From NCBI RefSeq assembly GCF_009914755.1, contig NC_060926.1: a DNA stretch of 64,000 nt; one strand, written 5' to 3'. Numbering within the stretch: position 1 is the first letter of the stretch; each line of letters begins with the position of its first letter. Of this stretch, positions 50,964 through 54,302 are shown one piece after another. Below the pieces are notes generated by a model, which did no database searches, was not told the origin of the DNA, and was given only the letters and a program-made list of their open reading frames with translations. The position numbers were made by a program, and so were the translations under genes. The stretch is from the human T2T-CHM13v2.0 reference genome, Homo sapiens.

Positions 50964-53854
50964 TGTAGTTTGCTTTTATATATGAATTACATTTGAAGTG
51001 TATATGAAGTATATTTTTATATATGAGGTCTGTTGTGAGTTATACTTCAGGAAGATAATAACTCTTCTAGAGATATTGAAGAACTTTCTCTTTACCCTCC
51101 AGGGTTTCTAAAAGTTTTTTATTTATGTTTTTTGTTAGTATTAAATTATAATAGTATCTTTTTATAAAAGCTTAAAGATTCAGGTTAATGTTTTCTTTGA
51201 TTTCTTTCAATTTACCTTCTACCCCAGGATCTATTACTTAAACAGTAACATAGACACAAGATCTTACGTATTTTCTGTAGTCCATATGAGTTTGAAAATA
51301 ACCATGTTTTCCACTTTTAAAAATAATTACTTATATTTCTGTATTAATTAAAACATAACACATTTATGAAATATGAATAAATAAAAATAAGAAAAAAATC
51401 TCATCAGCCAGAGATAACCTTTTAATATTTAGATGTATTTGACGTTATCACTGAAATGCCAAAGTGCAACTCAGTGCCTCCACCTGCCAGTCTGTTTTTC
51501 TTTATGCACCAGTACCTCTATATACTATTTATATTTATAAAAGCAATGTCTTGTTAGGCATACTGTTTGATTTTTTTTAGATATATAACATATCCTGAAC
51601 ACTTTTCCCTGTCATTAAGAAAATTTAATACACTCTTAATGGTTGCACATTTTCCATGTATTAATAGTGCAGAAATATACTGTGCTCAGAATTATCTTTT
51701 TCACAGTTATAATCATTTTCCTAGGATGTATTTACAGGATGAATCTGACAAAATTTCTTTTGATACTAATTATAAAATTGATCTATAGCAAAGCCTTATC
51801 CCCAGTATAGTGATGTCTGCTTCTCTGCAATTTTGCTGGCTGTAGGGTTTGACGGTTTAAAATAATCTTGGACAGTGCAATAGGTAGAAAACGTTATGGG
51901 TTCTTTTTCTATTTCATTGATTACAAGTGAAGGTAAACTTTTTTTTTTTTTTTTTTTGGTAATCATTCTTCTGTGAAATGCTTGCTCATCTCATCATTTT
52001 TGTGTGTGTGTGAATGTTTTTGAAATCAATGCAAGTTGCCAGAAAACATATAAATGCTTTCATGGACATCAAATAACACCATCTGCATTTTTATACTTTT
52101 AGAAATTGGTAGCTTGTATTTTAGCGTCATTCCCTTCTTGCCAGAAATCTCACTATGAAATAATAAGGGAGATTATTATACTATTTATATTCCCACAAGA
52201 AAAGTATGAGAGTGCCTCTCCTCTTACACTCTCACTCATCTTTTGGATTTTTCCTAGTTTGATAGGTAAAAAGTGGCTTTTTAATTTAGTTTTAATTTTT
52301 ATTTTTCTAATTATAAGTTTCTTTCCTGTGAGTTATTTGCTTATTTTCTTATTTGTAAAAATTCTTCATATATTAAGAAAATTAGTTATATGTGCTATAT
52401 ACATTTCAGATAGTTTTCTTTGTTTACTGTTTTTGAAATTGGTCATAATGGTTTATTTTGTCAGGTTTTTTTACAGTCACTGGCAAAAGTATTGACCAGG
52501 ACACATCCCTCTCATATATTACTAGAGATTTTTCTAACAGATAAGTCTAATAATCATTACTCTTTCAGTACATTTATTTAATTAACTATGAATTTGCCTA
52601 AAATAAATATTCAACTTTTGTTTCTGCTCCTGTTTCTACTCCCAAGTCTGTAGAAAACAATAGTGGTCTGTCTTGGAGAATGTTCCACATGCACTTGAAA
52701 ATAATGTGTGTTCTACTGTTGATGGGTGAAATGGCTGTTAGGTCTAGCTAGTTGTTTTACACTGCTGTTCAAGTCTCCTATTTCTTTTTTTATTTTCCTG
52801 GTTCTGTGCATTATTGAATGTTGGGTATTGCTGTCTCCAACTATTATTGTAGAATTGTCTATTCTGCCTTCAATTCTGTTAGTTTTTGCTAGATATAGTT
52901 TGGGGCTCTATTATGTGGTGTATATATGTTTATACTTGTCATACCTTCTTGATGAATTGACCCTTTTATCAATATATAATATCCTTTATCTCTCATAACA
53001 ATTTTTGCCTTAAAGTCTTGTTTTGTCTGTGGTAGCATAGGGTTCTGCAGACTTCAGTATATATATTGTCATGTAATCTTGAAACCCTCTTACACCTCCA
53101 GAGTGCACTACTTATGTAGCTTATTCTGATTGTGCCTCTTTTAGTAAGTTACAAAGCAGCAGCATCTGGTCACTAATATCCTGGTTAGGTTATGAAGAGG
53201 TAATTATGCATACCATTGGATACAGTACAAGAACAGCTACCTGGGAGGAAATTTTATGACATAGTACGTCTCGGCAAGAAGCACTCTGTTAGGGATGAAG
53301 TCTTATCAGAGAACCTGTTGTCTGAGATAGACGTGGAGTTTTGTAGAAAGTCTGTATTTCTTCTTACAGAGTATTCATTGCCTGTTACATTCCATTCTAT
53401 GTTTTACTTGACGAAAACTTCTGGAGTCTGACAGATGGGTAACTAGTATTTATAGTTCTAACTTTGCAAACCTTTTGGTTTTCATGACTATGTCAATAAA
53501 AAGGTGAAGGAGGATGAACCAGATATTAACTGATGTCATTATGTTTCCATGATATTTTGTGATTTTATGTATATGCTCTTAAAACTATATGTTATTTTAA
53601 AATTTGTGATTTTTTGGAGAACATGCCTTTACAAAATAATCTTATCTATAAATACTAAGTTTGTTTAGATTTCAAGTGTCACATGTTACAAAAACTTACT
53701 TCTTAAAATCATTAAATTTATCTAAAATTCTCACATGTTCCTTCATAATCTAGTTTGGGATAGTAATTGTTTCATGTCTGTTTAAATATGTCTTCCCTCT
53801 TGATTCTGTCGTTTAAACTTTTTAATCAGTACATCAAACTTCTTTCCTTTGTAG

Positions 53855-53914
53855 GTAAGGTACTCAACTGTGTGGGGTACTACATAAATCCTGAAAGACT
53901 ACAATAAAGTGGTG
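53855..53914 (+). other. SPOPL: SPOPL exon 2, 5' UTR portion
   Basis: Acceptor CTTCTTTCCTTTGTAG| at 53854; 60 nt to the ATG with an in-frame TAA at 53885-53887. Confidence 0.8.
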
Positions 53915-53992
53915 ATGTCTCGGGAACCCACCCCACCTCTACCTGGAGATATGTCTACTGGTCCCATAGCAGAAAGCTGGTGTTACACACAG
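53915..53992 (+). CDS. SPOPL: SPOPL coding exon (exon 2), aa 1-26
   Basis: [30 protein letters not shown]-family N-terminus but distinct from SPOP (MSRVPSPPPPAEMSSGP); donor CAG|GTACAT. Confidence 0.95.
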
Positions 53993-54180
53993 GTACATGC
54001 TCTTAAAAATCCCTCACTTTATGTCACTTATAAATTTTACAGTATGTTGAGAATAGTATTGTGAAACACTTTGCCATAGTTATTAGAAGTGTTAGAAGAC
54101 TGGATCGTAGGATGTTGAACATGTAACAAGTTAAAAGTATTACCGTCATCATTATAAAAGTGGTTTTCTGAATCTCTTAG

Positions 54181-54302
54181 GTTAAAGTAGTAAAATTTTC
54201 CTATATGTGGACCATTAATAACTTCAGTTTTTGTCGAGAGGAAATGGGTGAAGTGTTAAAAAGTTCAACATTTTCATCTGGCCCAAGTGACAAAATGAAA
54301 TG
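54181..54302 (+). CDS. SPOPL: SPOPL exon 3 (MATH domain)
   Basis: 122 nt, TAG| ... [49 protein letters not shown]. Confidence 0.96.

What the first reader, a model, noticed from the sequence alone, without database searches (positions are those of the whole stretch)
53838..54183. Exon 2 begins with a 5' splice-site consensus: a recursive-splicing switch that would fuse the uORF to the MATH domain
Seen: polypyrimidine-TAG|GTAAGG at 53854/53855, at the end of a 48-kb intron. Joining exon 1 regenerates CAG|GTAAGG, closer to consensus than exon 2's own donor (CAG|GTACAT). Exon 2 is 138 nt and holds both the uORF stop and the main ATG. Exon 1 ends in phase 0 of the uORF and exon 3 starts in phase 0. 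Removing exon 2 therefore gives MRFGGGG...[16 protein letters not shown]..., replacing aa 1-26 with a 51-aa Pro/Gly-rich N-terminus and leaving MATH-BTB intact. Established: RS-exons with AG|GTRAG exist and re-splicing is repressed by the exon junction complex. Inference: an EJC-sensitive switch that converts an inhibitory uORF into the start of an alternative SPOPL isoform.
Basis: partly seen in the sequence, partly recalled or inferred. Interest (0 to 1): 0.8.

Follow-up and report, generated by a model that had tools for sequence, protein, structure and literature searches.

The report
SPOPL exon 2 starts like a donor
The second exon of human SPOPL really does begin with a splice-donor-like sequence, but this is a common, already described type of exon, and nothing found here shows that it is re-spliced to make the proposed alternative protein.

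Summary
The acceptor is ttcctttgtAG|GTAAGG at 53854/53855. Exon 1 ends in CAG, so joining gives CAG|GTAAGG. Exon 2 is 138 nt and holds the uORF stop (53885-53887) and the main ATG (53915). The only ATG of exon 1 (5659) is in phase 0 at the exon end, and exon 3 starts in phase 0.

The rebuilt site pairs better with the U1 5' end (-11.5 kcal/mol, 8 of 9 consensus) than exon 2's own donor (-7.1) or any of the 7 annotated donors in the window.

This fits the published sequence definition of a "putative RS-exon". That class covers 3.6% of human exons and 21.7% of genes, and 93.8% of its members are constitutive (PMC6224609). Exon 6 of the same gene has the same layout.

I found no sign of the exon 1-exon 3 isoform:
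- None of the RefSeq transcripts listed in the hub's table has that junction.
- No protein in a 5.8-billion-protein database carries the uORF peptide fused to MATH.
- An old processed retrocopy on chr4 contains exon 2 with the same acceptor and the same GTAAGG.

Verdict: the anatomy is real, it is an ordinary member of a known class, and the "switch" is untested.

The parts
5462..5811 (+). SPOPL exon 1 (5' UTR, 74% G+C). It ends in CAG, which supplies the exonic half of the rebuilt 5' splice site.
   Evidence: Hub annotation; sequence; G+C content.
5659..5811 (+). Exon 1 part of the uORF. It starts at the only ATG in exon 1 (context GGAGGGATGC) and runs 51 codons, ending in phase 0 at the exon end. 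The peptide is rich in Pro, Ala and Gly (24 of 51).
   Evidence: The uATG and the frame are kept in one unnamed relative, P0001, with 35 of 51 residues identical.
5812..53854 (+). Intron 1, 48,043 nt, with donor GTAGGC.
53838..53854 (+). Pyrimidine tract and AG acceptor of exon 2 (12 of 14 pyrimidines).
   Evidence: The same acceptor was used in the mRNA fossilised as the chr4 retrocopy.
53855..53860 (+). GTAAGG, the first six bases of exon 2. It is the intronic half of the putative recursive 5' splice site (CAG|GTAAGG after joining).
   Evidence: 8 of 9 consensus and -11.5 kcal/mol with the U1 5' end. Identical in the retrocopy.
53855..53992 (+). Exon 2, 138 nt (46 codons). It fits the sequence definition of a putative RS-exon.
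   Evidence: definition read.
53885..53887 (+). TAA stop of the uORF. It lies 105 nt upstream of the exon 2/3 junction and in the same frame as the main CDS.
53915..53992 (+). Main ATG and codons 1-26 ([26 protein letters not shown]). This is the part that exon 2 skipping would remove.
   Evidence: 18 of 26 residues are identical to SPOP.
53993..54180 (+). Intron 2, 188 nt, with the weak donor GTACAT (-7.1 kcal/mol). Its branch point and acceptor would serve the second recursive step.
54181..54302 (+). Exon 3, starting in phase 0 with [10 protein letters not shown] (start of the MATH region).

Best explanation
SPOPL exon 2 is a normally included exon that happens to start with GTAAGG. It therefore fits the sequence definition of a 'putative RS-exon' in the sense of Blazquez et al. 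2018.

The likely sequence of events is as follows. After intron 1 is removed, the exon 1/2 junction reads CAG|GTAAGG, a strong 5' splice site. In most transcripts this site is not used. Either an exon junction complex laid down upstream of the junction blocks it, or the short intron 2 is removed first. Exon 2 then stays in the mRNA, and SPOPL is translated from the ATG at 53915 behind a 61-codon uORF.

If the site escapes repression, exon 2 plus intron 2 (326 nt) would be removed as one lariat. The uATG frame would then run straight into the MATH region. I read that in-frame fusion as a by-product of the uORF being in frame with the CDS, not as an evolved switch.

Shown: the sequence anatomy, the relative site strengths, and exon 2 inclusion in an old mRNA. 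Inferred: EJC repression at this exon, and any skipping.
For: - Anatomy confirmed.
- Site strengths: the rebuilt site scores -11.5 kcal/mol and 8 of 9 consensus. Exon 2's own donor scores -7.1. The 7 annotated donors in the window range from -6.8 to -11.4.
- Class size (PMC6224609, section read): 6,837 human exons (3.6%) in 21.7% of genes pass the definition, and 93.8% of them are constitutive.
- Same layout elsewhere in the gene: exon 6 gives GAG|GTGAGT (-12.7) with a weak own donor (-7.1). Skipping it would shift the frame, so the motif does not imply a designed isoform.
- Motif count in the window is at chance level.
- Fossil mRNA: the chr4 processed retrocopy carries exon 1, an extra exon, then exon 2 starting GTAAGGTACTCAAC, then exons 3-7. 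K2P divergence is 0.113 over 965 nt. So exon 2 was included, with the same acceptor and the same motif, when that mRNA was copied.
- No fusion protein in the database.
- 98 of the 120 listed relatives keep the canonical ...CYTQ-x-KVVKF N-terminus.
- The hub's RefSeq table lists no exon 1-exon 3 transcript.
Against: - The exon has the traits reported for the EJC-sensitive subset: a good 3' splice site, a weak own donor and a strong rebuilt site. Real skipping is therefore plausible.
- The uATG, the first 11 residues and the frame up to the exon end are kept in one unnamed relative (P0001, 35 of 51 identical). That is more than a random GC-rich leader need show.
- One bird gene model (P0039) has a short Pro/Arg-rich N-terminus joined exactly at the exon 3 boundary.
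- I could see no RNA-seq, junction, lariat or Ribo-seq data.
- I could not see the full list of RS-exons in Blazquez et al. Its PDF supplements are unreadable here, and paper reading closed.
Confidence: 0.68

Rival explanations
1. One reading: this is an evolved, EJC-sensitive recursive-splicing switch. When repression is lifted, exon 2 is re-spliced out. The uORF then becomes the start of a functional SPOPL isoform whose 51-residue Pro/Gly/Ala-rich N-terminus replaces residues 1-26.
For: - The frames fit.
- MATH stays whole.
- The rebuilt site is stronger than the exon's own donor.
- The uATG and frame are kept in P0001.
- In the normal mRNA the uORF stop lies 105 nt upstream of a junction. 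By established NMD rules that arrangement should be NMD-prone, and the fusion would remove it. This last point is inference.
Against: - No transcript or protein evidence: the hub's RefSeq table has none, and searches found no fusion.
- The in-frame relation has a prior chance of 1 in 3.
- The uORF peptide is low-complexity, as expected from 74% G+C DNA.
- The lost residues 1-26 are conserved between paralogues, 18 of 26.
- Exon 6 carries the same motif with a frameshifting outcome.
- SPOP's homologous exon has a consensus donor (CAG|GTAAGT) and no comparable start that I could align.
Confidence: 0.05
2. Noisy or regulated unproductive re-splicing. The rebuilt site is used in a minority of transcripts and removes the main ATG. 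The effect is lower SPOPL output, either a fusion product of no particular function or N-terminally cut products from ATGs in exon 3. It does not create a new functional isoform.
For: - The exon has the traits of the EJC-sensitive subset.
- Blazquez et al. report that some RS-exons assemble spliceosomes on the rebuilt site even with the EJC present.
- If the uATG is skipped, the next in-frame ATGs are at 54205 (weak context) and 54244. The second lies inside MATH.
Against: No junction data were available, and the only fossil mRNA includes exon 2.
Confidence: 0.22
3. The donor-like start acts before splicing. U1 bound at tAG|GTAAGG in the pre-mRNA (-9.9 kcal/mol) would help mark the far end of the 48-kb intron or protect the long intron from premature 3' end processing. 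It would never act as a donor.
For: The site is already donor-like in the unspliced RNA, and the intron is long. The roles of U1 in exon definition and in suppressing premature polyadenylation are established knowledge that I recall, not something I read here.
Against: Nothing here tests it. U1 on the first bases of the exon would overlap the bases read by the 3' splice site factors. Most RS-exons need no such explanation.
Confidence: 0.05

Closest known systems
Annotated (constitutive) RS-exons repressed by the exon junction complex (Blazquez et al. 2018, PMC6224609; sections 8, 10, 14, 17 and 30 read)
   Same: - An annotated internal exon starts with GT, and its junction with the preceding exon rebuilds a strong 5' splice site.
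- It has a good 3' splice site and a weak own donor, as reported for the EJC-sensitive subset.
- The predicted outcome of derepression is exon skipping through a second splicing step.
   Different: - SPOPL is not named in the main text searches or in the three readable supplements.
- No knock-down, PRPF8 iCLIP or lariat evidence exists for this exon.
- Here the skipped exon carries the main start codon, so the outcome would be a change of N-terminus through an in-frame uORF. I did not see that consequence described in the sections I read.
Intronic recursive splice sites in long vertebrate genes and Drosophila ratchet points (Sibley et al. 2015, as cited; PMC8605326, abstract listing only)
   Same: An acceptor and a donor sit side by side (YAG|GTRAG) at the end of a long intron segment.
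   Different: Those sites are cryptic and lie inside very long introns, and their RS-exon is normally discarded. Here the site is the start of an annotated exon that is kept, and the intron is 48 kb.
N-terminal proteoforms made by alternative splicing or alternative start sites (PMC13082882, listing and start of abstract only)
   Same: The proposed product would be an N-terminal proteoform that arises when splicing brings an upstream ATG into frame with the body of the protein.
   Different: No transcript or peptide supports it for SPOPL.

Membership tests
Putative RS-exon (sequence definition of Blazquez et al. 2018) | Annotated internal exon whose junction with the preceding exon rebuilds a 5' splice site scoring above the value reached by 90% of canonical human donors (MaxEntScan 5.52). 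| tested here: met
   MaxEntScan itself is not available here, so I used two proxies. The junction CAG|GTAAGG matches 8 of 9 consensus positions. Its duplex with the U1 5' end is -11.5 kcal/mol, stronger than all 7 annotated donors in the window (-6.8 to -11.4). Definition read.
EJC-sensitive RS-exon | Exon skipping rises after knock-down of EIF4A3, RBM8A or MAGOH and depends on the intact rebuilt site. | not testable with these tools
   No expression data were available. SPOPL is absent from the 3 readable supplements of PMC6224609. The PDF supplements are unreadable, and paper reading closed before other EJC papers could be checked.
EJC-sensitive RS-exon | Stronger 3' splice site and weaker own 5' splice site, favouring removal of the upstream intron first. 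| tested here: inconclusive
   The sequence traits fit: 12 of 14 pyrimidines before the AG and an own donor of -7.1 kcal/mol. The order of intron removal cannot be read from sequence (48-kb intron upstream, 188-nt intron downstream).
Physiologically used recursive site | Lariat reads that start at the first base of the exon, or PRPF8 crosslinks upstream of the exon-exon junction. | not testable with these tools
   SPOPL is absent from the 3 supplements of the lariat study PMC10156609. No raw data were available.
Intronic RS-site of long genes (Sibley 2015 type) | Cryptic site deep inside a very long intron whose RS-exon is normally removed. | tested here: not met
   The site is the start of an annotated exon that is retained (hub table). 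The retrocopy keeps the exon.
Upstream ORF | ATG in the 5' leader with an in-frame stop before the main ATG. | tested here: met
   ATG at 5659 and TAA at 53885-53887 in the spliced leader, 27 nt before the main ATG. Translation of the uORF is not testable here.
Alternative N-terminal isoform of SPOPL | A transcript or protein record that joins exon 1 to exon 3. | tested here: not met
   - None in the RefSeq rows given by the hub.
- Searching the uORF peptide found 1 protein among the longer entries (P0001, an intron read-through ORF) and only the window's own ORF among those of similar length.
- 98 of the 120 listed relatives have the canonical N-terminus. Only 120 of the 907 hits were listed.

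The most novel reading that the evidence does not exclude
Recursive splicing of exon 2 is gated by EJC deposition or by the order of intron removal. It would convert an NMD-prone, in-frame uORF into the start codon of a SPOPL proteoform. That proteoform swaps the paralogue-conserved 26-residue N-terminus for a 51-residue Pro/Ala/Gly-rich one and keeps MATH-BTB-BACK intact. It would be a case where an RS-exon controls which start codon a gene uses.
Probability: 0.05. Interest if true: 0.55.

Novelty: new member of a known kind. Interest (0 to 1): 0.25.

Why it matters
If exon 2 were really re-spliced, SPOPL would show that an RS-exon can decide which start codon a gene uses. It would also link EJC dosage, which is relevant to microcephaly models, to the make-up of a CUL3 adaptor.

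As things stand, the value is more modest. This is a clean, testable example of a common class. It has a second, paralogue-conserved example in the same gene (exon 6). It also has an old retrocopy that records how the 5' end of the mRNA was once spliced.

Tried and rejected
- **Literature.** 'SPOPL' with 'recursive splicing' gave 0 papers. With 'uORF' it gave 1 irrelevant paper. With 'EIF4A3' it gave 6 and with 'exon skipping' 4, none about this exon judging by title and abstract start.
- **Supplements.** SPOPL is absent from the 3 readable files of PMC6224609 and from the 3 of PMC10156609.
- **Rfam.** A scan of 52500-55500 found nothing.
- **Alternative acceptor at 53859/53860.** Rejected, because the retrocopy and RefSeq both start exon 2 at GTAAGG.
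- **Other retrocopies as a record of an exon-2-less mRNA.** Only one further copy was found (L007). It is 5'-truncated to exons 5-7 and says nothing about exon 2.
- **Paralogue comparison of the exon 2 start.** The 5' UTR parts of SPOP and SPOPL do not align, so there is no conservation evidence either way.
- **Cross-species DNA conservation of AG|GTAAGG.** Not possible, because no other vertebrate genome is held.
- **MaxEntScan.** Scores could not be computed, because the model is not on the script machine.
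Full report
**1. The observation**

Reading the window directly and by script confirms every sequence statement.
- Exon 2 is preceded by acttctttcctttgtAG. Of the 14 bases before the AG, 12 are pyrimidines. The exon starts with GTAAGGTAC at 53855.
- Exon 1 ends in ...GTCCAG at 5811, and its donor is GTAGGC.
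- Exon 2 is 138 nt, with donor CAG|GTACAT.
- The only ATG in exon 1 is at 5659, in the context GGAGGGATGC. From there 51 codons run to the exon end in phase 0. The peptide is MRFGGGG...AAAQHVQ, and 24 of its 51 residues are Pro, Ala or Gly. Exon 1 is 74% G+C.
- Read on into exon 2, the frame stops at TAA 53885-53887. That is 27 nt before the main ATG (53915) and 105 nt before the exon 2/3 junction.
- Exon 3 begins in phase 0 with [10 protein letters not shown].
- Because exon 2 is 46 whole codons, the uORF and the main CDS share one frame. The 'fit' between exon 1 and exon 3 is therefore this single coincidence, with a prior of about 1 in 3.

**2. Strength of the sites**

I scored each site by matches to CAG|GTAAGT and by duplex energy with the 5' end of U1 snRNA. 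The U1 motif was recalled, and pseudouridines were treated as U.

| Site | Consensus matches | Duplex energy (kcal/mol) |
|---|---|---|
| Rebuilt exon 1/2 junction, CAG|GTAAGG | 8 of 9 | -11.5 |
| Same place before splicing, TAG|GTAAGG | 7 of 9 | -9.9 |
| Exon 2's own donor | 7 of 9 | -7.1 |
| The 7 annotated donors in the window | 6 or 7 of 9 | -6.8 to -11.4 |

MaxEntScan could not be run here.

**3. How unusual is it?**
- As a bare motif it is not unusual. YAGGTRAG occurs 9 times in the window against 8.44 expected, and 49 of 100 shuffles reach 9.
- Of the 12 AG|GTRAG sites on the + strand, 2 have at least 11 of 14 upstream pyrimidines. Those 2 are the starts of exon 2 and exon 6.
- Exon 6 (62719) starts with GTGAGT. 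Joined to exon 5 it gives GAG|GTGAGT (-12.7 kcal/mol). Its own donor is weak (CAG|GTACTT, -7.1). It is 178 nt, so skipping it would shift the frame.
- So 2 of the 6 internal exons in the window have this layout, and in one of them the outcome would be destructive.

**4. What is known**

In Blazquez et al. 2018 (PMC6224609) I read sections 8, 10, 14, 17 and 30.
- Any annotated exon whose upstream junction rebuilds a 5' splice site above MaxEntScan 5.52 is called a putative RS-exon.
- There are 6,837 such exons (3.6% of human exons), in 21.7% of genes. Of these, 93.8% are constitutive.
- The EJC represses the rebuilt site. Hundreds of these exons are skipped after EJC knock-down.

SPOPL exon 2 fits the sequence definition and the sequence traits of the sensitive subset. 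SPOPL is not named together with recursive splicing in any paper of the searched library. It is not in the three readable supplements of that paper or in those of a lariat-based study (PMC10156609). The PDF supplements could not be read, and paper reading closed, so other EJC knock-down tables were not seen.

**5. A fossil mRNA**

Searching the window's own genome with exon 3 found three places: SPOPL itself, the paralogue SPOP on contig 17, and a place on contig 4.
- The chr4 locus (L003) aligns to the window exon by exon without introns. The order is exon 1 (from about 5617), a segment matching 8288-8368, exon 2, then exons 3 to 7. It is therefore a processed retrocopy.
- Its K2P distance from the parent exons is 0.113 over 965 aligned bases. 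With neutral rates that I recall, this puts it at tens of millions of years. The age is an inference.
- In the retrocopy, exon 2 begins right after the upstream exon with GTAAGGTACTCAAC, and its first 15 bases are identical to today's exon.

Three things follow from this:
- The acceptor at 53855 was in use, not an AG five bases downstream.
- The GTAAGG start is old.
- That mRNA kept exon 2 even though its upstream exon ended in AAG, which also rebuilds a good donor (AAG|GTAAGG, -10.0 kcal/mol).

A second chr4 copy (L007) covers only exons 5-7 and says nothing about exon 2. Searches with exon 2 and exon 4 DNA found no further copies.

**6. Would the fusion protein be sound, and does anyone see it?**

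*Soundness.*
- Pfam MATH_2 covers residues 33-161 in two SPOPL orthologues whose N-termini have the same length as the human exon 2 + exon 3 translation.
- Several solved SPOP MATH constructs begin one to a few residues before the position that aligns with the second residue of exon 3.
- So MATH-BTB would stay whole.

*Cost.* The 26 residues that would be lost are 18 of 26 identical between SPOPL and SPOP. That argues they matter.

*Evidence of existence.*
- Searching the 51-residue uORF peptide against 5.8 billion proteins found, among longer proteins, only P0001. It is 140 aa, from an unnamed 1-kb contig. It is 35 of 51 identical and reads on through the donor into the intron (...HVS-VGAP...), so it is a genomic ORF from a related species and not a spliced isoform.
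- Among proteins of similar length, the search found only the window's own 75-residue genomic ORF.
- The database does hold vertebrate SPOPL models. A search with exon 3 gave 907 hits, of which the best 120 were listed.
- Of those 120, 98 have the canonical ...CYTQ-x-KVVKF junction. Of the remaining 22, 19 are unnamed ORFs, most of which run from intron sequence into exon 3.
- The 3 named exceptions are a bird model (P0039, MSPAEPPRQRRDP joined at VKVVKF), a 77-residue tilapia fragment (P0036) and a medaka model that looks like intron read-through (P0078).
- None of the RefSeq rows supplied by the hub joins exon 1 to exon 3.

*What P0001 adds.* The uATG, the first 11 residues and the frame up to the exon end are kept in another species. 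This is weak support for a conserved uORF. A single in-frame 2-residue gap is not strong evidence.

**7. Paralogue comparison**
- SPOP's exon homologous to exon 2 has a consensus donor (CAG|GTAAGT).
- Its 5' UTR part does not align with SPOPL's, so nothing can be said about its start.
- The weak donor of SPOPL exon 2 is therefore not shared with its paralogue.
- SPOP's exon homologous to exon 6 also starts cacag|GTGAGTGTT.

**8. Reading**

The best explanation is an ordinary, normally included RS-type exon (confidence 0.68).
- Mechanism by analogy with the published class: after intron 1 is removed, the junction is a strong donor. The EJC, or prior removal of the 188-nt intron 2, keeps it silent.
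- If it escapes, exon 2 and intron 2 (326 nt) leave as one lariat, and the uATG frame enters MATH.
- A minority of unproductive re-splicing is a fair rival (0.22).
- The evolved switch with a functional proteoform gets 0.05.
- A pre-splicing role of U1 at this site gets 0.05.
- Rfam found nothing in 52500-55500.

**9. Novelty and score**

The kind is known and common. This exon is a new named member with one particular twist: the skipped exon carries the start codon, and an in-frame uORF lies upstream. That twist is untested. Interest is 0.25.

Noticed in passing
window 62716-62724 (start of exon 6) and 62894-62904 (its donor); L006 (SPOP, - strand): Exon 6 also starts with a donor consensus (ttattAG|GTGAGT). 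Joined to exon 5 it gives GAG|GTGAGT, -12.7 kcal/mol with U1, while its own donor CAG|GTACTT scores only -7.1. The exon is 178 nt, so skipping it would shift the frame. The homologous SPOP exon also starts cacag|GTGAGTGTT, so this donor-like start (codons Val-Ser) is shared by the two paralogues.
   Followed up: partly
L003 = G000:C4:72564400-72567495 (about 1113-2111 of the locus): This is a processed retrocopy of SPOPL on chr4. It contains exon 1, an extra exon, and exons 2-7 without introns, and it has stop codons. K2P distance to the parent is 0.113 over 965 nt. It records the old splicing pattern of the 5' end.
   Followed up: yes
window 8288-8368: This is an 81-nt 'fossil' exon inside intron 1, present in the chr4 retrocopy between exon 1 and exon 2.
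- Its acceptor is catgtgccag|GCATTG. From memory, the flanking sequence looks like the core of a MIR repeat.
- In today's sequence the base after the exon is C (AAG|ctatgt). Either the donor GT has since been lost, or the retrocopy lost 4 bases and the donor was the weak TAT|GTAATG at 8372/8373.
- The exon carries an in-frame TAA for the uORF.
- It is not in the RefSeq rows given.
   Followed up: partly
L007 = G000:C4:72436730-72439879 (about 1426-1730, - strand relative to the window): This is a second SPOPL-derived copy on chr4, about 127 kb from the first. It covers only part of exon 5 plus exons 6 and 7, either 5'-truncated or a partial duplicate.
   Followed up: partly
window 53855-53917: In the normal mRNA the uORF and the main CDS are in the same frame, separated by a single TAA (53885-53887) and 27 nt. 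The uORF stop lies 105 nt upstream of the exon 2/3 junction. By the usual 50-55 nt rule (recalled) this would make uORF-translating ribosomes trigger NMD unless they reinitiate.
   Followed up: no
window 63871-63878 (intron after exon 7): Another side-by-side acceptor/donor motif, acttgactatttttcAG|GTAAGC, with 10 of 14 upstream pyrimidines. It lies in an intron and is not annotated as an exon start.
   Followed up: no
P0001 (140 aa, unnamed 1,058-base contig): A metagenome-derived ORF that is clearly vertebrate host DNA. It is orthologous to SPOPL exon 1 plus the start of intron 1. It has the same MRFGGGGRHRD start and the same VGAP read-through of the donor.
   Followed up: partly
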